Shown: positions 3,583 to 56,789 of the stretch, one piece after another
Position numbering within the stretch: the stretch's first letter is position 1
Layout of the letters: every line of letters begins with the position of its first letter
Made by a program: the position numbers and the translations under genes
Source: Escherichia coli
GTDB taxonomy: Bacteria; Pseudomonadota; Gammaproteobacteria; Enterobacterales; Enterobacteriaceae
Reading direction: 5' to 3' (one strand)
Length of the DNA stretch: 64,000 bases
NCBI RefSeq assembly: GCF_003334335.1
Contig: NZ_QOWQ01000007.1
The notes under the pieces: model-generated
What the model was told of the DNA's origin: nothing
The model's database searches: none
What the model saw: only the letters and a program-made list of their open reading frames with translations

Positions 3583-3610
3583 GTTGCTGTTTTCGGTTCC
3601 GACAACGGTT

Positions 3611-3797
3611 GCCGGATGCGGCGTAAAACGCCTTATCCATCCTACGGTTCCGTGCTCGGGACCTGTAGGCCTGATAAGACGCGTCAGCGTCGCATCAGGC
3701 ACTGAATGCCGGATGCGGCGTGAACGCCTTATCCGGCCTACGGTTCTGTGCTCGGGTCTTGTAGGCCTGATAAGACGCGTCAGCGTCGCATCAGGCA
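3611..3797. repeat. Tandem REP/BIME elements (two ~95 bp units)
   Basis: gccggatgcggcg...cttatcc...gtaggcctgataagacgcgtcagcgtcgcatcaggc occurs twice in tandem, classic REP palindromes; causes an artificial 5' extension of the wcaK ORF in the six-frame track. Confidence 0.85.
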
Positions 3798-46991: not shown

Positions 46992-47918
46992 ATGATGCGT
47001 CGTGTAAATATTCTTTGCTCATTTGCTCTGCTTTTTGCCAGCCATACTAGCCTGGCGGTAACTTATCCATTACCTCCAGAGGGTAGCCGTTTAGTGGGGC
47101 AGTCGTATACTGTAACTGTTCCTGATCACAATACCCAGCCGCTGGAGACTTTTGCCGCACAAAACGGGCAAGGGTTAAGTAACATGCTGGAAGCGAACCC
47201 GGGTGCTGATGTTTTCTTGCCGAAGTCTGGCTCGCAACTTACCATTCCGCAGCAACTGATTTTGCCCGCCACTGTTCGTAAAGGGATTGTGGTTAACGTC
47301 GCTGAGATGCGTCTTTATTACTACCCGCCAGACAGTAATACTGTGGAAGTCTTTCCTATTGGTATCGGCCAGGCTGGGCGAGAAACCCCGCGTAACTGGG
47401 TGACTACCGTTGAACGTAAACAAGAAGCTCCAACCTGGACGCCAACGCCGAACACTCGGCGCGAATATGCGAAACGAGGGGAGAGTTTGCCCGCATTTGT
47501 TCCTGCGGGTCCCGATAATCCCATGGGGCTGTACGCGATTTATATTGGCAGGTTGTATGCCATCCATGGTACCAATGCCAATTTTGGTATTGGGCTCCGG
47601 GTAAGTCAGGGCTGTATTCGTCTGCGCAATGACGATATCAAATATCTGTTTGATAATGTTCCTGTTGGAACGCGTGTGCAAATTATCGACCAGCCAGTAA
47701 AATACACCACTGAACCAGATGGCTCGAACTGGCTGGAAGTTCATGAGCCGCTGTCGCGCAATCGTGCAGAATATGAGTCTGACCGAAAAGTACCATTGCC
47801 GGTAACCCCATCTTTGCGGGCGTTTATCAACGGGCAAGAAGTTGATGTAAATCGCGCAAATGCTGCGTTGCAACGTCGATCGGGAATGCCTGTGAATATC
47901 AACCGTAACGGATTTTGA
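46992..47918 (+). CDS. ldtA: L,D-transpeptidase (ErfK/LdtA)
   Basis: Signal peptide plus YkuD-type L,D-transpeptidase domain (...[20 protein letters not shown]...). Confidence 0.92.
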
Positions 47919-48003
47919 CATTCAAAACGTCTGGTTTTTCGGTCTGTGTAAGCATTACGTCATGCAAAACTGGTTGTTTCGAATCATACAAATCATAATT
48001 TTC

Positions 48004-48030
48004 TTCTCATATGCGCATCTCTTATGAGCA
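48004..48030 (+). promoter_or_regulatory. Imperfect inverted repeat TtCTCATATG-N7-CTTATGAGCA upstream of the SorC-family regulator gene (candidate operator)
   Basis: Read directly; half-site resembles the TGCTCAT palindromes at 53066-53204. Confidence 0.35.
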
Positions 48031-48079
48031 TAATCGTTATACTCTTCTGATTTATACATGTTTGCTGATGACATGATCA

Positions 48080-49057
48080 ATGGAAAAGAGAATGACGAAA
48101 CAGAAAAAAAACAGCCGCTGGCAGGGTTACGATCCTCGCTACATATACTCGCTCGTGGTCAGACGTTATTTTGCGGATATGAAAACCAAGATTGAGATTG
48201 CAGAGGAGCTTGGCGTTTCCCGCTTTAAAGTTGCCAGATTGATCGATGAGGCGATCGAACAGGATTACGTGAGGTTTATCTTCCCTAAGCAGCAAGCGAT
48301 GGATGAAGAAATCGCCAGTAATTTACGGAAAAAATTTCATCTGGAAGATGCAATTGTTCTTTCAGTTGCTGAATCCTGGACGACGCAAGAAGAACTCAAT
48401 CACAAATTGGGTGAAGTCACCGCTGAATATCTTATGCAATCTCTTCATGAAGGTATGAAAGTGGGGATCGCCTGGGGGCGTGTATTATCAAGCACGGTCA
48501 GTAAGTTGAGCAAGTTGCCTCCTTTAGACGTTGTGCAGTTATCTGGCGTACATCCGGGGATTGAGTTCAGTCAAGGGCCAATAGATCTTATTCATAAGAT
48601 CGCTGCCATTTCGCAGGGAAAAGCGCACCCAATGTACGTGCCGATGTGGGTCGATGACGAAGAGCTTGCTGCCAGACTGGCAGGTGATCCTGCGGTATTA
48701 GATACACAGCAATATTACTCACAGTTGGATGTGGTTATCACCGGGATAGGTGACTGGAAATCAGGTTCTTCAAGCTTGTGTAAAATATTTCCGGATACCT
48801 GGTGCGAAGCGTTGTTTCAACAAGATATCGCTGCGGATGTGTGTATCTCGTTGGTCAACAGGGAAGGGAAGATTCTTCATAGTCCTATTGAACGTCTGGG
48901 ATTTGGCATTTCGACGGATCAACTACAAAAAGCCAAAAAAGTGATTGGTGTCGCTGGAGGAGAAGAAAAATATGAAGGCATCCTTGCTTCGCTGAAATCC
49001 GGACTTTTGAATGTCTTAATTACTGATTTTGATACGGCCATTAAACTTCTGGATTAA
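48080..49057 (+). CDS. SorC/DeoR-type transcriptional regulator (N-terminal HTH, C-terminal sugar-phosphate-binding domain)
   Basis: 325 aa; HTH region IEIAEELGVSRFKVARLIDEA followed by a SorC-like effector domain; start could also be the ATG at 48092. Confidence 0.8.
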   Translation: MEKRMTKQKKNSRWQGYDPRYIYSLVVRRYFADMKTKIEIAEELGVSRFKVARLIDEAIEQDYVRFIFPKQQAMDEEIASNLRKKFHLEDAIVLSVAESWTTQEELNHKLGEVTAEYLMQSLHEGMKVGIAWGRVLSSTVSKLSKLPPLDVVQLSGVHPGIEFSQGPIDLIHKIAAISQGKAHPMYVPMWVDDEELAARLAGDPAVLDTQQYYSQLDVVITGIGDWKSGSSSLCKIFPDTWCEALFQQDIAADVCISLVNREGKILHSPIERLGFGISTDQLQKAKKVIGVAGGEEKYEGILASLKSGLLNVLITDFDTAIKLLD

Positions 49058-49075
49058 TAGCCATATCAGTGAAGA

Positions 49076-49106
49076 AAGGGCAGTACCGCTGATTCTGCCC
49101 TTTTAA
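49076..49106. terminator. Bidirectional terminator between the convergent regulator gene and the PTS operon
   Basis: gggcag-taccgctgatt-ctgccc hairpin followed by tttt. Confidence 0.6.
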
Positions 49107-49108
49107 TT

Positions 49109-49567
49109 TCAGGATGCTTCGAGCGTATCCTCTACATATTTAGCCACGCGCGTTGCAGGTAAATTGCGGCAAGTCTCAACAAAGGCGTTATCCTGAAACA
49201 GTGTGAATAAACGACGCAATATCGACATATGTTGATCACTGGTGGCAAATGCCAGGTTAAACATAATGCTACAATCAACTGTTAAATCAGCATCTTCCAT
49301 TTGCCCGAAAGTGACATCATTGGCGAAACGAACAATACTGATACTGTTGACATTTACCAGCGTGTAATCGGCATGGGGAATGGCGATACCCTGACCGTTT
49401 GCCATCATTAGTCCTGTCGGATAGCTTTTTTCACGTTTCAGACAGGCGTCAATGTATTCTGCAGTGATATAGCCTTTTTCCAATAATTGCGTACCAGCAA
49501 AGGTGATCGCCGTTTGATAGTCACTGATGCTGTTATCAACATCATTCACCAGAATTTCAAATTTCAT
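49109..49567 (-). CDS. PTS enzyme IIA component (galactitol-family PTS)
   Basis: 152 aa; phosphorylatable His context GQGIAIPHADYTL typical of PTS EIIA type 2. Confidence 0.85.
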   Translation of the reverse strand: MKFEILVNDVDNSISDYQTAITFAGTQLLEKGYITAEYIDACLKREKSYPTGLMMANGQGIAIPHADYTLVNVNSISIVRFANDVTFGQMEDADLTVDCSIMFNLAFATSDQHMSILRRLFTLFQDNAFVETCRNLPATRVAKYVEDTLEAS

Positions 49568-49577
49568 TGCACACCTG

Positions 49578-49862
49578 TTATTTCAACATCTCTTCTTTAA
49601 CTGCAGCGAAAATCTCATCTTCGCCCAGACCAGTCAGTAATCCAGCGCCAACGATGACACGAGTAGTAATGGCCGGGTTATCGAGTTTGGTCGATGAAAC
49701 CACCAGGTCATAGCTGTTGAAGGTATCGCTGGTGCATGCCATTAACGAAGATTTATCGACTTGCGCTTCAATTTTCTCTTCTTTCAGGAAGTCCTGCAGT
49801 ACAGAGACCATGATGGAAGATGAGGCAATTCCGTTTCCGCAAACTACTAAGATTTTTTTCAT
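49578..49862 (-). CDS. PTS enzyme IIB component (GatB-like)
   Basis: 94 aa; MKKILVVCGNGIASSSIM with the active-site Cys near the N-terminus. Confidence 0.85.
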   Translation of the reverse strand: MKKILVVCGNGIASSSIMVSVLQDFLKEEKIEAQVDKSSLMACTSDTFNSYDLVVSSTKLDNPAITTRVIVGAGLLTGLGEDEIFAAVKEEMLK

Positions 49863-49885
49863 TTGATTATTCCTCTGTAAAAGAT

Positions 49886-51256
49886 TTAAAGCGCTTTTTC
49901 CAAATCCGTTTCAATCTGGCGACGTGATTTTTGTTTAATTAAGTATCCAATAGATAACAAAAGGATACCTGCCATCAAATAGCCAATGATTCCAACATGG
50001 CTCAGGGCGGCAAACAGACCAGTAAATGGATTCGCTGACGGGTTAAGTGAAGAGTACATTACGCTGGCATCCGGGTTTGTACCAAATTTCTGGAAGACTT
50101 CGTTGGTAGCCGGTGCCATCCACGACGCAATATACAGACCACCACCGAACAATATGATCGAGGTCACCCAGGTGCGAATAATGTTGCCATTAAAAACAGG
50201 TACCATGCAGGCAATGAAAAACACAAACTGAGAGAGGTCACCCAGTGGCATAACGCGGTTGCCGGGCAAGATCACGGCGAGGATCACAATCACCGGGATC
50301 AGCAATAATGCAGGGGCGATAACTGATGGATGGCCCACAATCAGAGCAGTGTCCATACCAACAGTGATTTGACGATCCGGGAACCGTTTGACCAGTTTTT
50401 TGCGTGCTACGTTGGAAAGCGGAACAAGTCCTTCCATCATGATAGAGGTCATACGTGGTAACAGAAGCATGACCGCAGCCAGATACATCCCTAACTGTAG
50501 GCTGGCGATTATGGTGTGGTATGGGGATTTCCAGCCATAACCACAAAAGCCCAATAAAATACCAATAATAAAACCAACCATAGTTGGATCGCCGAGAATG
50601 CCAAACCGTTTCTGAATAGTTTCGGCGGTCACATTCAGATTACGGAAGCCTGGGATGCGATCATAAATCCAGTTGAATGGATAAGCGAAAAGTAAGTAGG
50701 TATTGGCAACCGGGTGAGAGATCGCAACACCTTTTGGCAGGTTAAAGAATTTTTCGTTATTTTTAGCACCAAGATCGGCAGCGATCAGCGCCCAGACATG
50801 GAATAGCGCGGCGGTCAATGCGCCATACAGGAAGCTACCAGAATAGACGCCAACAATTGCCCCCATTGACGCATTTTGATGAAGATTGAAGACATCAACG
50901 TTAACACAGTCAGTCAGGCGGGCGACCAGCATTGCAATATTTACCGCAACACAGAGGGGAATAATGATAGCGCCCATGCTGGAGCCAAATCCCATAACCG
51001 CAGTCGCTGCGCCACCAACATCGATGGCACTGAGCGAGGAACCTGTTGCTTCTGCTAATCCGGTGACTGCCGGTTGCATTTTTTCCAGCATCAGTTTGAT
51101 GGTCATGGTTAACGCAATGAAACCAATGCCGACTTTGATGGCAGACGAGATACATTCTGAAAGAGGACGGCCAAGTATCTTCATCAGTACCAGAAAGATG
51201 ACCGGGATAAATATAAAATTTCCCAGATCGTTTATAAATTGCGTGATCAGTTCCAT
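49886..51256 (-). CDS. PTS enzyme IIC permease (GatC/SgcC family)
   Basis: 456 aa; shares blocks with GatC as I recall it (IGIGF, VNVDVFN, IQKRFG, MEGLVP, LIVGHPSV, PGNRVMPLGDL). Confidence 0.85.
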   Translation of the reverse strand: MELITQFINDLGNFIFIPVIFLVLMKILGRPLSECISSAIKVGIGFIALTMTIKLMLEKMQPAVTGLAEATGSSLSAIDVGGAATAVMGFGSSMGAIIIPLCVAVNIAMLVARLTDCVNVDVFNLHQNASMGAIVGVYSGSFLYGALTAALFHVWALIAADLGAKNNEKFFNLPKGVAISHPVANTYLLFAYPFNWIYDRIPGFRNLNVTAETIQKRFGILGDPTMVGFIIGILLGFCGYGWKSPYHTIIASLQLGMYLAAVMLLLPRMTSIMMEGLVPLSNVARKKLVKRFPDRQITVGMDTALIVGHPSVIAPALLLIPVIVILAVILPGNRVMPLGDLSQFVFFIACMVPVFNGNIIRTWVTSIILFGGGLYIASWMAPATNEVFQKFGTNPDASVMYSSLNPSANPFTGLFAALSHVGIIGYLMAGILLLSIGYLIKQKSRRQIETDLEKAL

Positions 51257-51259
51257 ACA

Positions 51260-51796
51260 TTAACCCTCAGATTTTTCATCATCTGGTCGGAAACCCATAT
51301 TCCAGCGTACATCAGCGGGCTTAACCAGCAATGCATTATCGTTACGTTCAGCTTCTAGCAAGTTCTTTTTAGAATTTTCTCTGGCGGTGGTGAAGTCGAA
51401 TGGGTTATCCAACCATGCATCGACAATCATTTTGCTGTATTCGAGATCGTTGACCCGGCAACCCAGTCCAATAACTTGTGCGTTATTGCTGAGTCGCGCC
51501 CGCTTTGCGGAGTAGGGGTTAGTAACCGCAACGGCTCTTATGCCCCAGTGTTTGTTGATCTGACAAGTAAAGCCAATGCCAGTCCCACAAATGTAAATTC
51601 CCAGACGGCACTCATCGCGTTGAATAATGCCTGCCATTTCGTCGGCCAGACGCGCGAAGTTATTGACACCTTGTTCCTTACATGTGACGGGATCGTACAC
51701 GATCTCCATGTTTTTCTCTTCTATGAGGTATTTTTTTATCTCCTCTTTACGTGCAAAACCTACATCATCGCTTGCGATAGCAATCTTTGTTTTCAT
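51260..51796 (-). CDS. RpiB/LacA/LacB-family sugar-phosphate isomerase (ribose-5-P isomerase B / allose-6-P isomerase-like) with a C-terminal extension
   Basis: 178 aa; IYICGTGIGFTCQINK...IRAVAVTNPYSAKRARLSNNAQVIGLGCRV...KMIVDAWL aligns with E. coli RpiB blocks from memory; ~30 extra C-terminal residues. Confidence 0.8.
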   Translation of the reverse strand: MKTKIAIASDDVGFARKEEIKKYLIEEKNMEIVYDPVTCKEQGVNNFARLADEMAGIIQRDECRLGIYICGTGIGFTCQINKHWGIRAVAVTNPYSAKRARLSNNAQVIGLGCRVNDLEYSKMIVDAWLDNPFDFTTARENSKKNLLEAERNDNALLVKPADVRWNMGFRPDDEKSEG

Positions 51797-52144
51797 TTCA
51801 TTTTGCCTGTCGTTAAGTAACTAAAGCCAAGTATGCTGTTGGTAAATATTGGTTGTCAATTGAGATCTGAATCACAAAATTTATAACTAATTGATTTTAA
51901 TGGTATTAAAAACCAATAAAAACAAATAAAAAATAAATTAAGCCAATTGAGACAAATTGGGATTGTACAGTGGCGTTGTAATGAATAATAAAAACTCATT
52001 TATTATCAATCGGATATATGGTTTTTGAACTGTTGTCTTTATTGGGTTTATTTGTACTTTCCACTGTTAGTGTTTGTTTTTGTTTGCATCATCTGTGCTA
52101 TGCTTGGCGTTTTCTAAGATGGGTAATAGATTTCAGGAGGAAGG

Positions 52145-52900
52145 ATGTATCTGGTTGATGAAAGGCGAAAGTTAATACTTGAAGACTTAATGTCGGCAGG
52201 TACGGTCTATGTCAGTGATCTTGCACGAAAGTATGAAGTAACGTATGAGACCATCAGGAAAGATTTGACCCATCTTGAACAAAAAGGGCTGCTGATCAAA
52301 AGCCATGGTGGGGCGACTTTAAAGCAAAGGGCTATAGAGCATCCCTTTCAGGTCAGGGAAAAAGAAAATAACTCTTATAAGAAGGCGATAGCTCGTAAAG
52401 CGCTTGATTTCATTCCGCCTAATAGTTCGATGATTATCGGTACGGGCAGTACCACTTTTGAGCTGGCTAACCTGTTATGTATGAAGTCTGGGTTTAAAAT
52501 CTTCACAGATTCGCTCCCCGTTGCCAGTGTGTTGATTGAATCTGACAACCAGGTTTTTCTCTTTGGCGGCGAACTGCGTAGAAAGAGTTCCTCAGTGTTT
52601 GGGGGGTGGGCGGTATCTATGATCAACGATATACATGTTGATCTCTGTTTTATTGGAACCGACGGCTTTAGTAACATGACTGGTCCATCGACGCCTTCTT
52701 CTTCTGATGCGTTTTTGGATCGTACGATAATTTCGCACTCAGACAAAAAATATATCCTCGGTGATTACACCAAGTTTGAGCGCAGCAGTTTATTTAAGAT
52801 CTGCGACTGGTCGGAGATCACCGCCCTTATAACCAACGATCATGCCGACAAAGAGGGGATTGCCGAAGTCGCAAAATACACGTCAGTAATAACCTGTTAG
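52145..52900 (+). CDS. DeoR-family transcriptional regulator
   Basis: 251 aa; N-terminal HTH (RRKLILEDLMSAGTVYVSDLARKYEVTYETIRKDLTHLEQKGLL) and DeoR C-terminal sugar-phosphate sensor domain. Confidence 0.85.
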   Translation: MYLVDERRKLILEDLMSAGTVYVSDLARKYEVTYETIRKDLTHLEQKGLLIKSHGGATLKQRAIEHPFQVREKENNSYKKAIARKALDFIPPNSSMIIGTGSTTFELANLLCMKSGFKIFTDSLPVASVLIESDNQVFLFGGELRRKSSSVFGGWAVSMINDIHVDLCFIGTDGFSNMTGPSTPSSSDAFLDRTIISHSDKKYILGDYTKFERSSLFKICDWSEITALITNDHADKEGIAEVAKYTSVITC

Positions 52901-53065
52901 AACTCACTACGACACGCCTTCTCCCTTCGAATCAGCTTTGCCAAATGTAATCATTTCCCAATTATCAAGTGAGCATCCATGGCGATGCTTGCTTAGCGCC
53001 CTCTATTGAATACATCCTCTGCCTATTGCCAGTTTCAGTTACTTTTTTGCGAAGAAATCACGATT

Positions 53066-53204
53066 TGCTCATATGAGCATAAATACTGACGCCATTATGT
53101 GCTTTTTTGTGATCTGGATTTAATTTCTCAGATCTCGTTATTTATCCACAGGATCGTTGTGCTATAACTGCTCATATGAATATTGTTCAATGCTCATGTG
53201 AGCA
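53066..53204 (+). promoter_or_regulatory. Promoter/operator region of the second PTS operon with three copies of a TGCTCAT-type palindrome
   Basis: TGCTCATATGAGCA (53066-53079, perfect palindrome), TGCTCATATGAA (53169-53180), TGCTCATGTGAGCA (53191-53204), the last one ~10 nt upstream of the RBS. Confidence 0.5.
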
Positions 53205-53227
53205 TTTTTGGGTGAGGGGGAAAGGAT

Positions 53228-53671
53228 ATGATATCGATCAGTGTTGCCGATGGTGCGGGACTGCAGAATTACGATGCCGTGCTTGAGCATATTTTTAACA
53301 CGCACCGTACAACGAATACGGTGAAAGAGAGCTGGCTCAATGCTATGCGTAAACGCGAAGCGGAATATCCGACAGGAATAGAACTGGAAGGTTATTCTAT
53401 CGCTATACCACACTGTGATAGTGAACATGCGAATCAACCTGCTATTTATATCATCCGTCTGCCAGACGCAATACCTGTGAACAGGGCTGATGAAGATGGA
53501 ATATTGTGGGTCAGACTCGTCGTTAATCTTATTGTTACGGATCCTGCTGACCAGCTTCGATTGTTAAAGTCATTATTTAACCATCTCCAAAATGAAGAAT
53601 TTTACCAAAACTTACTGACACTTCCCGTCGATGATGCAAAAGCACTTTTTGTATCCAAAATAATCCAATAG
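53228..53671 (+). CDS. PTS enzyme IIA component (GatA-like)
   Basis: 147 aa; EYPTGIELEGYSIAIPHCDSEHA parallels the GatA active-site region. Confidence 0.85.
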   Translation: MISISVADGAGLQNYDAVLEHIFNTHRTTNTVKESWLNAMRKREAEYPTGIELEGYSIAIPHCDSEHANQPAIYIIRLPDAIPVNRADEDGILWVRLVVNLIVTDPADQLRLLKSLFNHLQNEEFYQNLLTLPVDDAKALFVSKIIQ

Positions 53672-53689
53672 TAAAAACTGGAGTTTATT

Positions 53690-53983
53690 ATGATTAATAT
53701 TCTTGTTGCTTGTGGTAGCGGTGTCGCTACCTCTACGCTTGCTGCTGATGAAGTGAAGTCAGTATGTGCTGAATATGGTATTACGGCATTTAAAATCAAC
53801 AAATGCAGTATGGCTGAACTTTCTTCTGAGATGGCTCATGCAGATATTGTACTCACAACTAATAACTATAAAGGTGATATTGGGAAACCACATATGAGCG
53901 TTGCAGGTTTTGTAACGGGCATTAATGAAGGAGCATTACGCAAGAAATTAGGAGAGTTATTAACTGAATTAGCAAATAGCTAA
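53690..53983 (+). CDS. PTS enzyme IIB component (GatB-like)
   Basis: 97 aa; MINILVACGSGVATSTLAADEVK with the active-site Cys. Confidence 0.87.
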   Translation: MINILVACGSGVATSTLAADEVKSVCAEYGITAFKINKCSMAELSSEMAHADIVLTTNNYKGDIGKPHMSVAGFVTGINEGALRKKLGELLTELANS

Positions 53984-54003
53984 ACCTGACAGGAATAATA
54001 AAA

Positions 54004-55257
54004 ATGGAAATGTTGAAAAATTTAATGGAAACAATCACCGGAATGGGGGCAACTGCAATACTGCCGCTGGTGATATTTATTTTAGGTCTGGTGTTCAGAA
54101 TGAAACCAGGTGCCGCAATCAAGTCGGGCATCACAGTCGGTATTGGTTTTATTGGTTTAGGTCTGGTTGTTGGTTTATTAAATAGTTCATTACAGCCAGC
54201 TATTGAGTATTACTCAAAAGTAGGTAGTGGTTTTACGGTTGCAGATATTGGTTGGCCAGCAGTCGGTGCTGCTGCATGGGTGGCACCTTTTGCCGCATTA
54301 GTGATACCAGTTGGCATCGTACTTAACCTGATTCTGGTGCGTCTGAAATTAACCAAAACGTTAAATGTTGATATCTGGAACTATATGCATTTTTTAGTTC
54401 CGGGCGCTCTGGCATATTTTGTGTTCGATAGTTTTATCATCGGCTTCTCTGTCGCGGTGGCTTTGAGTATTGCGGCTCTGTTTATTGGCGATTTGATTGC
54501 TCCCAGATGGCAAAAATATTATGGACTCGAGGGAACAACCTGTACCACGATGATTCATATCGGCTGGACTCTACCGTTCGCTTGGGTAGTAAATAAAATC
54601 ATTGATTACATCCCAGGGTTAAATAAGTTAGATGTTGACTTAAACAGTGTGCAAAAACGCCTGGGTGTCTTTGGTGAACCTGCAATTATCGGTGTTATCG
54701 TTGGCGCATTACTCGGAGTTTTAACGAAACAGGCAATTACCACAATTGTTCCCATGGCGATGGGGGCTGCTGGCGTCATGGTGTTGTTACCAAAAGTTGT
54801 TGGTGTGCTGATGGAAGGTCTTAACCCAATAGGGAAAAGTGCCAAAGAAATCATGCAAAAACAGATGGGTAAAGATGCTGAATTAAACATCGGTATGGAT
54901 TGTGCTCTAGCGTTGGGGGATCCGGCGACGGTCACCGTGACAGTAATTACCATTCCTTTAACCATGCTATGTGCTCTGGTATTGCCTGATATTAAGATCT
55001 TCCCAATTGGCGTATTGATGTCAATTATTTATATGACCACCATGACCGTAATGGCGAGCAACGGTAACGTGATTCGTTCGATTATCTCGACCTTGTTATT
55101 CTGCGTTGTAGTGATGTATTTAGGCGGTTATGTCGCACCAGGGGCAACGCAATTTTTAGCTGGAGCCGGTGTAGGCTTGCAAGGACAAGGTACTGATTTT
55201 GTATTAACCGGCCCGTGGGAAATTTTAACCTATTGGTTGAGTACCGTATTACATTGA
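54004..55257 (+). CDS. PTS enzyme IIC permease (GatC/SgcC family)
   Basis: 417 aa; VGIGFIGLGLVVGLL, LNVDIWN, VQKRLGVFGEPAIIGV, MEGLNPIG blocks. Confidence 0.87.
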   Translation: MEMLKNLMETITGMGATAILPLVIFILGLVFRMKPGAAIKSGITVGIGFIGLGLVVGLLNSSLQPAIEYYSKVGSGFTVADIGWPAVGAAAWVAPFAALVIPVGIVLNLILVRLKLTKTLNVDIWNYMHFLVPGALAYFVFDSFIIGFSVAVALSIAALFIGDLIAPRWQKYYGLEGTTCTTMIHIGWTLPFAWVVNKIIDYIPGLNKLDVDLNSVQKRLGVFGEPAIIGVIVGALLGVLTKQAITTIVPMAMGAAGVMVLLPKVVGVLMEGLNPIGKSAKEIMQKQMGKDAELNIGMDCALALGDPATVTVTVITIPLTMLCALVLPDIKIFPIGVLMSIIYMTTMTVMASNGNVIRSIISTLLFCVVVMYLGGYVAPGATQFLAGAGVGLQGQGTDFVLTGPWEILTYWLSTVLH

Positions 55258-55279
55258 TTTAATAATCTGGAGTTTTAAC

Positions 55280-55924
55280 ATGGCAAAAATATTACCTTCT
55301 ATATTTGGCGCGGATATTTTACGCCTGAAAGATGAAATTCATTTTCTGGAAGAGGAACAAACCGAAATATTGCACGTTGATTTAATGGATGGCACATACG
55401 TCAGTAATATAGCCTTTGGCCCAAATCAAATTGCAGCAATGAAAAAAGCCAGTTCGATGATCTTTGACGTGCACATGATGCTGGCAAAACCTGAGCGACA
55501 TATTGATGATGTAATCAATACCGGGGCGGAGATGATTTCTGTACATTATGAATCGACGCCACATGTACATTATATTATTCAAAAAATCAAAAAAGCGGGT
55601 CGCAAAGCAGGTGTAGTGCTTAACCCTGGGACACCTGAATCTGTCATCGAGTATTTATTAGATGATATTGATTATATATTGTTAATGACAATTAACCCCG
55701 GGCAACCAGGCCAGACATTTATTCACAAAAGTCTGGAGAAAATCCGTAATGCCAAAAAAATGATATCTGGTAGAGATATTCAAATTGAAGTGGATGGTGG
55801 CGTTAATCTTGATAATGTAAAACAAGTTAAAGAAGCAGGGGCTGACCTTATTGTTGTTGGTGGTGCCTTATTTAACAAACAGCCTCGTGAAAGTTATCAG
55901 GCATTAAAAATCGCTGTTCAGTGA
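55280..55924 (+). CDS. Ribulose-phosphate 3-epimerase family enzyme (AlsE/SgcE-like ketose-phosphate 3-epimerase)
   Basis: 214 aa; HVDLMDG metal-binding motif and overall Rpe-like layout. Confidence 0.82.
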   Translation: MAKILPSIFGADILRLKDEIHFLEEEQTEILHVDLMDGTYVSNIAFGPNQIAAMKKASSMIFDVHMMLAKPERHIDDVINTGAEMISVHYESTPHVHYIIQKIKKAGRKAGVVLNPGTPESVIEYLLDDIDYILLMTINPGQPGQTFIHKSLEKIRNAKKMISGRDIQIEVDGGVNLDNVKQVKEAGADLIVVGGALFNKQPRESYQALKIAVQ

Positions 55925-56021
55925 TCACAATCTAAAAATTTCACATCCAGTTAAGTGAGGTTTTCGATTTCATATCGGGAGGAAAACCTCAGCTAAAAAA
56001 TGTCTTTAATGGAGAAAAGTA

Positions 56022-56774
56022 ATGAGTAATTTTGCAGGTAAAGTGGTTTTAGTTACCGGAGGTGCTCACGGTATTGGCAAAGGGATAGCTAAACAATTTG
56101 CTGATCGTGGCGCACATACTGTTATTGTTGACTATAACGAAGAGAACGGCAAGGCCACTGCAGCAGAGTTAACTTTTGGTGAAGTTAAATCGTTGTTTAT
56201 TAAAACAGATGTCTCCGATCCACAGGCATTAGTGGATGTACGGGAAAAGGTATTTGCTACCTTTGGTCGCATTGATGTGTTGATATTAAATGCCGGTGTG
56301 GCATTTGCCAATAAAGTTAACAATATTTCTTTTGAGGAATGGAATAAGACTATCGCAATTAACTTATCGGGATTATTTAATACCGTTAAGGCGTTTTATG
56401 ATGATTTCCTGACAAATAAGGGATCTATTGTTTATATCTCATCGGGATCAGCACTTTCGGGGACTGGGGGCGGTGTGAGTTATCCTGCCAGTAAAGCGGG
56501 AGGCGAAGGATTGATTCGTGGTCTGGCAAAAGAGTTAGGACCAAAAGGCGTCAATGTTAATGCGATTGCTCCCCGCTTAATAGACACCGGAGAGATGATG
56601 CGGGTCAACTATCCAACACAAGCCGATTTAGACGCTGTCCTGGAAAAAATACCCGTCCGTCGTCTGGGGACTATCGATGATGTGGCTAACCTGGCAATAT
56701 TTTTGGCAGATAAAGATAACTCTTATATTCAGGGACAAACCATTTTAATGGATGGTGGCCGGACTATTGCTTAA
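56022..56774 (+). CDS. Short-chain dehydrogenase/reductase (SDR); candidate polyol-phosphate or sugar-phosphate dehydrogenase
   Basis: 250 aa; TGGAHGIGKG cofactor motif, catalytic YxxxK (YPASK), NAG motif. Confidence 0.85.
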   Translation: MSNFAGKVVLVTGGAHGIGKGIAKQFADRGAHTVIVDYNEENGKATAAELTFGEVKSLFIKTDVSDPQALVDVREKVFATFGRIDVLILNAGVAFANKVNNISFEEWNKTIAINLSGLFNTVKAFYDDFLTNKGSIVYISSGSALSGTGGGVSYPASKAGGEGLIRGLAKELGPKGVNVNAIAPRLIDTGEMMRVNYPTQADLDAVLEKIPVRRLGTIDDVANLAIFLADKDNSYIQGQTILMDGGRTIA

Positions 56775-56789
56775 AAAGGGAGAGAAAAA

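What the first reader, a model, noticed from the sequence alone, without database searches (positions are those of the whole stretch)
55925..56021. Intercistronic stem-loop between the epimerase and SDR genes
The 97-bp gap inside the putative operon contains a 9-bp perfect inverted repeat (tgaggtttt ... aaaacctca, 55956-55992) with no adjacent T-run. This is not a canonical terminator but is the kind of structure that serves as an RNase processing or stability element and adjusts expression of distal genes relative to proximal ones.
Basis: seen in the sequence. Interest (0 to 1): 0.2.

Follow-up and report, generated by a model that had tools for sequence, protein, structure and literature searches.

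The report
Conserved intercistronic mRNA hairpin, PTS operon
The stem-loop between the epimerase and dehydrogenase genes is real and is kept, with changing sequence, at the same operon junction across enterobacteria, so it is most likely an ordinary mRNA hairpin that sets the ratio of upstream to downstream gene expression.

Summary
A perfect 10-bp stem (55956-55965 / 55982-55991) sits in the 97-nt rpe-SDR spacer, with no T-run after it. It folds at -14 to -16 kcal/mol (z = -3.7), in the top 1.4% of 45-nt folds in this low-GC island.

The window is an E. coli accessory island next to tRNA-Asn, found in 229 of 5426 complete genomes. It carries DeoR-IIA-IIB-IIC-rpe-SDR-hxlB. The hairpin is single-copy, matches no Rfam family, and has no promoter or operator copy beside it.

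In 14 enterobacterial genera the rpe-SDR junction is the only long gap in the operon (85-122 nt; the others are 3-27 nt). Each has a hairpin 23-34 nt upstream of the SDR start. Stem sequences differ, with compensatory changes and G·U pairs that work only in the sense RNA.

About half of the relatives have GGGGAG/CUCCCC plus UUUGU, which looks like a leaky terminator. E. coli and six others lack the U-tract. Firmicute orthologs mostly have tight junctions.

Best reading: a sense-strand mRNA boundary hairpin. In E. coli it would act as a barrier to 3'-exonucleases rather than a terminator, favouring PTS/rpe over SDR/hxlB. This function is inferred, not shown.

It is a new member of a known kind and of low interest.

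The parts
55280..55924 (+). rpe-like ribulose-phosphate 3-epimerase gene, the last gene of the proximal segment
   Evidence: TIGR01163 at 4.8e-70, above its cut-off; RefSeq annotation in the identical E. coli record
55925..56021 (+). 97-nt intercistronic spacer, the only long gap in the operon (the others are 15-22 nt)
   Evidence: orthologous operons in Enterobacterales have 85-122 nt here and 3-27 nt elsewhere
55956..55965 (+). 5' arm of the outer helix, UGAGGUUUUC
   Evidence: invariant in all 10 E. coli alleles sampled; covaries with the 3' arm in L010 and L012
55966..55981 (+). Apical part: a 3-bp inner helix GAU/AUC (55966-68 with 55974-76), loop UUCAU, and a 5-nt purine bulge GGGAG (55977-81) on the 3' side
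   Evidence: The inner helix is supported by a U-A to C-G double change in L012 and L010. RNAfold's own minimum-energy fold prefers an alternative UUUC/GGGA inner helix. The one E. coli polymorphism inside the hairpin (G55966T) falls here.
55982..55991 (+). 3' arm of the outer helix, GAAAACCUCA
55992..56010 (+). A/U-rich single-stranded spacer between the hairpin and the SDR ribosome-binding site. It holds a non-conserved mini-ORF start at 56000.
   Evidence: The AT of ATG 56000 is deleted in the alleles sampled from the commonest E. coli class, and G56002A occurs in others.
56011..56024 (+). Shine-Dalgarno GGAG (56011-14) and the SDR start codon (56022-24)
   Evidence: The next in-frame upstream codon triplet includes a TAA at 56007-09, so the gene cannot start earlier. 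The block is invariant in the E. coli alleles.
56022..57350 (+). Distal segment: SDR oxidoreductase (56022-56774) and 6-phospho-3-hexuloisomerase hxlB (56790-57350)
57375..57402 (-). Canonical terminator-like hairpin with A/T runs on both sides, at the operon end and facing tRNA-Asn. It serves as an internal contrast to the hairpin under study.

Best explanation
The element is a structure of the sense mRNA of a single DeoR-IIA-IIB-IIC-rpe-SDR-hxlB transcription unit. It marks the boundary between a proximal segment (PTS components and epimerase) and a distal segment (dehydrogenase and isomerase). In E. coli it has no U-tract, so it should not terminate transcription. The likely mechanism is as follows. 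After endonucleolytic cleavage in the A/U-rich stretch downstream, the 10-bp hairpin stalls the 3'-to-5' exonucleases PNPase and RNase II. This leaves the proximal segment longer-lived and more abundant than the distal one. In about half of the related genera the homologous hairpin (GGGGAG-loop-CUCCCC followed by UUUGU) looks like a leaky intrinsic terminator, which would give the same polarity by a different route. What is shown: the structure, its statistical excess, its conservation with covariation, its strand, its uniqueness in the genome, and the absence of a promoter, operator or U-tract. What is inferred: that it is a decay barrier, and that proximal expression exceeds distal.
For: Stable fold, z = -3.7; top 1.4% of folds in the island. 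It lies in the only expanded junction of the operon, in E. coli and in every enterobacterial ortholog examined. All 14 genera have a hairpin 23-34 nt upstream of the SDR AUG, although the spacers are largely unalignable and the coding DNA is only about 74-75% identical. The mean z of the region is -1.9, and 13 of 14 values are negative. In the E. coli-type subfamily (E. coli, L012, L010), 98% of cells are paired and 3 pairs changed on both sides, while slid controls give 35-58% paired. G·U-rich stems make the + strand far more stable than the - strand in L010 (-20.3 vs -12.4), Rahnella (-12.8 vs -4.8) and Pantoea (-11.4 vs -3.7). There is no T-run. No sigma-70-like promoter lies in the gap. 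The operon's palindromic operator-like motif is absent from the gap. Among E. coli alleles, 1 of 11 mutational events falls in the 36-nt hairpin and none in the 10-bp stem. Published precedent: in E. coli, 26 of 34 gene pairs with a stabilised upstream gene end at a stable hairpin that lacks a U-tract, and these hairpins are conserved in Salmonella and Enterobacter (PMC5927463). An Enterococcus ortholog (L022) has an independent 11-bp hairpin without a U-tract at the same junction.
Against: No RNA 3'/5'-end, coverage or half-life data were available, so the function is untested. The stem is modest (-14 to -16 kcal/mol, A/U-rich in its upper half). Its position is constant relative to the downstream start codon rather than the upstream stop, which fits a 5'-UTR element of the SDR gene equally well. 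No exact RN|WUU RNase E motif lies between the hairpin and the SD in E. coli (read directly from the sequence). The E. coli polymorphism test is weak: P is about 0.05 if 11 events are counted separately and 0.14 with conservative merging. One relative (Citrobacter L008) carries an A·C mismatch that weakens its stem to -7.8 kcal/mol, so the constraint is not absolute.
Confidence: 0.45

Rival explanations
1. The hairpin is a 5'-protective structure of the papBA type. RNase E cuts the spacer just upstream of it, and the resulting SDR-hxlB mRNA starts with a hairpin that shields it from 5'-end-dependent RNase E attack. The distal genes would then be stabilised relative to the proximal ones.
For: The distance from hairpin to the SDR AUG is nearly constant (23-34 nt), while the distance from the rpe stop varies from 14 to 74 nt. 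Hairpin, A/U-rich spacer and SD form the alignable, conserved module. RN|WUU-like sites (AA|AUU, AA|UUU) lie at about 55936-55941, upstream of the stem (sequence). The mechanism is documented for papBA and for 10 of 15 E. coli operons (PMC5927463).
Against: The candidate cleavage motif is about 15-18 nt upstream of the stem, which would leave a long single-stranded 5' end. The motif is not conserved in L010. In half of the orthologs the same hairpin carries a U-tract, which would lower distal expression rather than raise it. That is the opposite polarity.
Confidence: 0.15
2. The hairpin is a functionless relic. An ancestral leaky terminator at this junction lost its U-tract in the E. coli lineage, and the remaining hairpin persists by inertia, or because the island is young within E. 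coli, with no measurable effect on expression.
For: MAFFT aligns E. coli GGGAGG-AAAA-CCUC with the GGGGAG-loop-CUCCCC hairpin of relatives. The U-tract is present in about half of the genera and absent in the rest. Within E. coli the island alleles are 95-100% identical, so invariance of a 36-nt piece is weak evidence. Citrobacter tolerates a stem mismatch.
Against: Seven genera without a U-tract still keep a stable hairpin at the same place, with quite different stem sequences, compensatory changes and G·U pairs. That is hard to explain without selection on pairing. The E. coli-type stem is a perfect 10 bp even though the surrounding spacer has diverged from L012 and L010.
Confidence: 0.2
3. 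The hairpin is a weak intrinsic terminator or attenuator in E. coli itself and reduces read-through into SDR-hxlB during transcription.
For: Orthologous hairpins in L009, L011 and L038 are flagged as terminator-like. The location after the fifth gene, followed by an untranslated spacer, suits attenuation.
Against: The E. coli tail is GCUAAAAAAU, with 1 U in 8. It is not flagged by the terminator scan. The upper stem is four A-U pairs. L012 and L010 also lack a U-tract.
Confidence: 0.08
4. The hairpin is a translational or protein-binding element for the SDR gene. Either the exposed GGGAG bulge or the CCUC arm modulates ribosome access (anti-SD or standby site), or it binds a regulator such as CsrA.
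For: The purine motif GGGAG/GGGGAG is kept in nearly all orthologs. It is unpaired in the E. coli-type fold. The distance to the SD is fixed.
Against: The E. coli 3' arm CCUCA can form only about 3 bp with the SD UGGAG, and in relatives at most 4-5 bp across a loop of about 20 nt (sequence reading). Whole-gap minimum-energy folds leave the SD free. In the GGGGAG-type relatives the motif is buried in the stem. No start codon follows the motif at SD distance, and the mini-ORF at 56000 is destroyed in the alleles sampled from the commonest class. The motif does not fit the A(R)GGA core of CsrA sites (my knowledge of the consensus, not tested with a tool).
Confidence: 0.07
5. The repeat is a DNA-level palindrome, for example an operator for the island's DeoR- or SorC-type regulator, rather than an RNA structure.
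For: In E. coli the arms are perfectly complementary and the operon has two candidate regulators nearby.
Against: The arm sequences are not conserved between genera, only their complementarity is. Several orthologs need G·U pairs that become A·C mismatches on the other strand or in DNA. The operon's own operator-like palindrome TGCTCAT(A/G)TGAGCA occurs three times upstream of IIA and not in this gap. No promoter is present to be controlled.
Confidence: 0.03

Closest known systems
Protective 3' hairpins of differentially decaying operons (malE-malF, puf, and the set mapped by Dar & Sorek 2018, PMC5927463)
   Same: It is a stable stem-loop inside a polycistronic unit. It is not followed by a U-tract, it is conserved in related species, and it lies at a boundary between functional groups of genes.
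   Different: The malE-malF element is made of REP repeats, which are GC-rich and dispersed through the genome. This hairpin is unique to its locus and A/U-rich in its upper stem. Most of the Dar & Sorek hairpins lie inside the downstream coding sequence, whereas this one is intergenic. No 3' ends or half-lives are known here.
papB-papA intercistronic hairpin (RNase E cut upstream, structured 5' end stabilises the distal gene)
   Same: The hairpin is intergenic, sits a short and fixed distance upstream of the distal gene's ribosome-binding site, and has A/U-rich single-stranded flanks.
   Different: No mapped cleavage exists. The orthologous hairpins with U-tracts imply the opposite polarity.
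Leaky Rho-independent terminators inside operons
   Same: Orthologs in Klebsiella, Citrobacter, Enterobacter, Brenneria and Entomohabitans have GGGGAG(G)-loop-(C)CUCCCC followed by UUUGUYAU. The simple scan flags three of the four tested.
   Different: The E. coli element and those of L012, L010, Pantoea, Rahnella and Providencia have no U-tract.

Membership tests
Rho-independent (intrinsic) terminator | G+C-rich stem with a short loop | tested here: inconclusive
   The 10-bp stem has 5 G-C pairs. The apical part is 16 nt, with an inner 3-bp helix and a bulge.
Rho-independent (intrinsic) terminator | U-tract immediately 3' of the stem | tested here: not met
   The tail is GCUAAAAAAU, 1 U in 8. 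It is not reported by the terminator scan on either strand.
REP/BIME elements (malE-malF type stabiliser) | Dispersed repeat with many copies per genome and the REP consensus | tested here: not met
   There is exactly one copy per genome in 228 E. coli genomes, always at this locus. No other copy lies in the window, whose true REPs are at 3593-3797.
Protective 3' decay-barrier hairpin (Dar & Sorek class) | Hairpin significantly more stable than background and lacking a U-tract | tested here: met
Protective 3' decay-barrier hairpin (Dar & Sorek class) | Structure conserved at the homologous position in related species | tested here: met
   14 of 14 enterobacterial genera, with covariation and G·U pairs
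Protective 3' decay-barrier hairpin (Dar & Sorek class) | Stable RNA 3' ends map just downstream of the hairpin, and the upstream gene has a longer half-life | not testable with these tools
   This needs Term-seq and a rifampicin decay series in an island-carrying strain.
papBA-type 5' protective hairpin | RNase E cleavage (RN|WUU) immediately upstream, so that the hairpin becomes the 5' end | tested here: inconclusive
   Motif-like AA|AUU lies about 15-18 nt upstream in E. coli (sequence). It is not conserved in L010, and cleavage itself cannot be tested.
RNase III processing site | About 20 bp or more of near-continuous duplex | tested here: not met
   There are 13-14 pairs, interrupted by a 5-nt bulge.
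Any curated RNA family (Rfam 15) | Match to a covariance model | tested here: not met
   No hit in the gap at E <= 1. No hit at the orthologous gaps of 13 loci at gathering thresholds.
Operator palindrome of the operon's repressor | Sequence shared with the operator-like sites at the operon promoter, with arms conserved across species | tested here: not met
   TGCTCATNTGAGCA occurs only at 53066, 53169 and 53191. The arms differ between genera and need G·U pairs.

The most novel reading that the evidence does not exclude
The junction may record an evolutionary conversion between two ways of setting operon polarity. An ancestral leaky terminator (GGGGAG-loop-CUCCCC-UUUGU) would have been remodelled in the E. 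coli / UBA5654 / Pseudocitrobacter lineage. The old 3' arm (CCUC) would have acquired a new, perfectly complementary upstream partner (UGAGGUUUUC), possibly by a templated, palindrome-making mutation, while the U-tract was lost. That would turn a terminator into a pure decay barrier and expose the old 5' arm as a GGGAG bulge.
Probability: 0.2. Interest if true: 0.35.

Novelty: new member of a known kind. Interest (0 to 1): 0.2.

Why it matters
If the inference is right, this junction sets the stoichiometry between a sugar-alcohol PTS transporter plus epimerase and the two downstream catabolic enzymes. The operon is horizontally spread, of unknown substrate, and carried by about 4% of complete E. 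coli genomes. The series of orthologs, with and without a U-tract on a homologous hairpin, would be a convenient natural test set for comparing leaky termination with exonuclease blocking. Otherwise it is an ordinary example of a well-known class of element.

Tried and rejected
- **Rfam.** Scans of the operon and of 13 orthologous loci found nothing at the junction.
- **Dispersed repeat or MITE.** Rejected: one copy per genome and no other copy in the window.
- **Internal promoter.** No sigma-70-like site on the + strand in or near the gap in E. coli or in L036, L009, L011 and L038.
- **Second operator.** The promoter-region palindrome is absent from the gap.
- **Leader or mini-ORF (ATG 56000, MSLMEKSNE).** Rejected: there is no SD at the proper spacing, and the ATG is deleted or mutated in most alleles.
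- **SD sequestration by the CCUC arm.** Rejected on complementarity, and because minimum-energy folds leave the SD open.
- **Metagenome scan for more E. coli-type hairpins** (pattern GGTTTTCGA...TCGGNAGGRAAAC). It returned only E. coli alleles and unrelated chance hits. One hit lies inside a coding sequence that I recognised by eye as HicA-like. Another sits right after an unrelated gene in a high-GC contig. It added no lineages.
- **Covariation in the GGGGAG-type group from a plain MAFFT alignment.** It recovers the 6-bp consensus stem but only one double-sided change, because the divergent members are misaligned.
- **Literature search for this operon.** Nothing specific was found.
- **NJ tree of rpe+SDR.** It does not resolve whether the three E. 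coli-type loci form a clade.

Full report
**Context.** The window is E. coli chromosome. The 1.5 kb around the finding is 100% identical to several RefSeq E. coli genomes and occurs in 229 of 5426 complete genomes, always once and on the chromosome. RefSeq annotation of an identical record and NCBIfam scans place it in an accessory island of about 9.5 kb. The island has 42.5% G+C, against 46% for the window, and lies between ldtA and a tRNA-Asn gene.

The + strand carries seven genes:
- a DeoR-type regulator (52145-52900)
- galactitol-family PTS IIA, IIB and IIC (53228-55257)
- an rpe-like epimerase (55280-55924)
- an SDR oxidoreductase (56022-56774)
- hxlB, a 6-phospho-3-hexuloisomerase (56790-57350)

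A canonical hairpin flanked by A/T runs on both sides follows at 57375-57402. Gaps between the genes from IIA to hxlB are 18, 20, 22, 97 and 15 nt. The gap in question is the only long one.

**The observation.** The gap is 55925-56021, as stated. It extends to a perfect 10-bp stem through C55965-G55982.
- The 48-nt core folds at -16.0 kcal/mol, z = -3.72 against dinucleotide shuffles. The whole gap folds at -18.9 kcal/mol, z = -2.28.
- The 45 nt ending at the stem are in the most stable 1.4% of 45-nt windows in the island.
- Perfect inverted repeats of at least 10 bp with short loops occur at 10 places in the window, against 1.7 expected.
- The tail is GCUAAAAAAU. It has no U-tract, and the terminator scan does not flag it on either strand.

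**What it is not.**
- No Rfam family matches the gap, even at E <= 1.
- It is not a dispersed repeat. The 97 nt hit exactly one place per genome in 228 E. coli genomes. Nothing else in the window resembles it, and the window's genuine REP elements are at 3593-3797.
- No sigma-70-like promoter lies in or just upstream of the gap.
- The operon's operator-like palindrome TGCTCAT(A/G)TGAGCA occurs three times upstream of IIA (53066, 53169, 53191) and not here.
- The SDR gene cannot start further upstream, because an in-frame TAA lies at 56007-09.
- A nine-codon mini-ORF starts at ATG 56000. In the three genomes sampled from the commonest allele class (122 of 228 genomes at 90-95% gap identity) the AT of that ATG is deleted. 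Another allele has ATG changed to ATA.

**Variation within E. coli.** Ten distinct gap alleles were recovered from genomes and metagenomes. By my count from that alignment they differ by 11 mutational events. Only one (G55966T) lies in the 36-nt hairpin, in its apical part, and none lies in the 10-bp stem. This enrichment outside the hairpin is weak: a hand-calculated binomial gives about 0.05, and 0.14 if adjacent changes are merged, as the script did. In strain ET474 an IS1 sits in the hairpin loop and the upstream half of the operon is gone.

**Comparative evidence.** This is the main result. A scan of one genome per species with the SDR protein returned the same gene cluster in 14 enterobacterial genera and in several Firmicutes. 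Coding DNA is only about 74-75% identical to E. coli, and the spacer is not alignable between E. coli and, for example, K. oxytoca.
- In every enterobacterial locus examined the rpe-SDR junction is the only expanded one: 85-122 nt, against 3-27 nt for the others.
- Each locus has a hairpin whose 3' end lies 23-34 nt upstream of the SDR AUG. The distance from the rpe stop varies from 14 to 74 nt.
- The region -70 to -16 folds better than its shuffles in 13 of 14 genera, with a mean z of -1.9.
- The stems differ in sequence.

Three loci share the E. coli form: E. coli, the Enterobacteriaceae MAG UBA5654 (L012) and Pseudocitrobacter (L010). On their alignment 98% of cells pair. Three pairs changed on both sides: U-A to C-G, A-U to U·G, and U-A to C-G in the inner helix. 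Slid controls give only 35-58% paired.

Stems rich in G·U pairs make the sense strand much more stable than the antisense strand in L010, Rahnella, Pantoea and Providencia. The conserved object is therefore an RNA structure of the sense transcript, not a DNA palindrome.

Firmicute orthologs mostly have tight junctions (5-39 nt) without a hairpin. Enterococcus hulanensis is an exception, with an unrelated 11-bp hairpin, also without a U-tract, at the same junction.

**Two forms of the hairpin.** In Klebsiella, Citrobacter, two Enterobacter loci, Brenneria and Entomohabitans the hairpin is GGGGAG(G)-loop-(C)CUCCCC followed by UUUGUYAU or UUUUUCC. Erwinia and Izhakiella show the same pattern less clearly. 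The simple scan calls three of the four tested loci terminator-like.

E. coli, L012, L010, Pantoea, Rahnella and Providencia have no U-tract. The hairpin is thus conserved independently of the U-tract.

MAFFT aligns the E. coli segment GGGAGG-AAAA-CCUC with the GGGGAG-loop-CUCCCC hairpin of the others. This suggests that the E. coli form is a remodelled version in which the old 3' arm pairs with a new upstream arm and the old 5' arm is left as the GGGAG bulge. That is an inference from one alignment, and a neighbour-joining tree of rpe+SDR does not resolve the order of events.

**Mechanism.** Dar & Sorek (PMC5927463) mapped differential decay in E. coli operons. In 26 of 34 gene pairs with a stabilised upstream gene, the stable 3' end lies just after a hairpin that lacks a U-tract, and these hairpins are conserved in Salmonella and Enterobacter. 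A minority of operons follow the papBA model, where RNase E cuts upstream of a hairpin that then protects the downstream gene.

The element here meets the sequence-level criteria of the first class: it is stable, has no U-tract, is conserved and sits at a boundary. In half of the relatives the homologous hairpin looks like a leaky terminator, which can only lower distal expression. The parsimonious reading is therefore that the junction enforces higher proximal than distal expression in all of them. In E. coli this would work by blocking 3' exonucleases rather than by termination. I give this 0.45.

The rivals are:
- the papBA-type alternative, favoured by the fixed distance to the SDR start (0.15)
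- a functionless relic of a terminator (0.20)
- weak termination in E. coli itself (0.08)
- a translational or protein-binding role of the GGGAG/CCUC motifs (0.07)
- a DNA operator (0.03)

SD sequestration was examined and rejected. The E. coli 3' arm can form only about 3 bp with the SD, and whole-gap folds leave the SD open.

**Verdict.** The element is a locus-specific new member of a well-known kind (intercistronic mRNA hairpins that shape operon stoichiometry). A specialist would not be surprised. Interest 0.2.

Noticed in passing
window 53066-53079, 53169-53182, 53191-53204: Three copies of a 14-bp palindrome TGCTCAT(A/G)TGAGCA (two exact or near-exact, one with 2 mismatches) lie in the 327-nt region upstream of the PTS IIA gene. 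There were 9 strand-matches in the window against 1.8 expected. They are likely operators of the operon's repressor. BLAST homology to the K. oxytoca and UBA5654 loci begins exactly at 53064.
   Followed up: partly
window ~47900-57400: A low-GC accessory island (42.5% G+C) between ldtA and tRNA-Asn carries two divergent galactitol-family PTS clusters. One has a SorC-type regulator and RpiB on the minus strand. The other is the DeoR-type operon studied here. The island is present in only 229 of 5426 complete E. coli genomes, and its substrate is unknown.
   Followed up: partly
L012 1-816 and L010 12-927, versus window 48142-49057: In the two non-E. coli loci with the E. coli-type hairpin, the gene directly upstream of IIA is homologous to the island's SorC-type regulator, not to the DeoR-type one. 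K. oxytoca has the DeoR-type gene. The same operon is thus paired with different regulators in different genera.
   Followed up: no
L005 (E. coli ET474) 788-1552: An IS1 element ends inside the hairpin loop (the junction corresponds to window ~55970/55971). Together with an ISKpn26-like IS5 element it replaces the upstream half of the operon, leaving SDR-hxlB without their native promoter.
   Followed up: partly
window 57405-57508, 59812-59896, 61617-61721: Three tRNA-Asn (GTT) genes lie within 4.3 kb, two on the minus strand and one on the plus strand. They form 84-104-nt direct and inverted repeats around nac, cbl and yeeO, and the island abuts the first of them.
   Followed up: no
window 3593-3797: A tandem pair of REP/BIME-like repeats (about 96-nt period, 93% identical). 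These are typical E. coli REP sequences and served here as a contrast to the single-copy hairpin.
   Followed up: no
L016 (Rahnella) and L020 (Izhakiella), rpe-SDR spacer: These spacers carry a second, G+C-rich hairpin (ACGCGCUC-loop-GAGCGCGU) shortly after the rpe stop, in addition to the conserved hairpin near the SDR start. Two consecutive structures sit at one junction.
   Followed up: no
L010 5483-5554: An Rfam naRNA4 (REP-derived nucleoid-associated RNA) match above the gathering score lies just downstream of hxlB in the Pseudocitrobacter contig.
   Followed up: no
window 57346-57408: A sub-threshold Rfam match to the enterobacterial sRNA STnc370 (33 bits against a gathering score of 54) overlaps the operon-end terminator hairpin. 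It is probably just the terminator.
   Followed up: no
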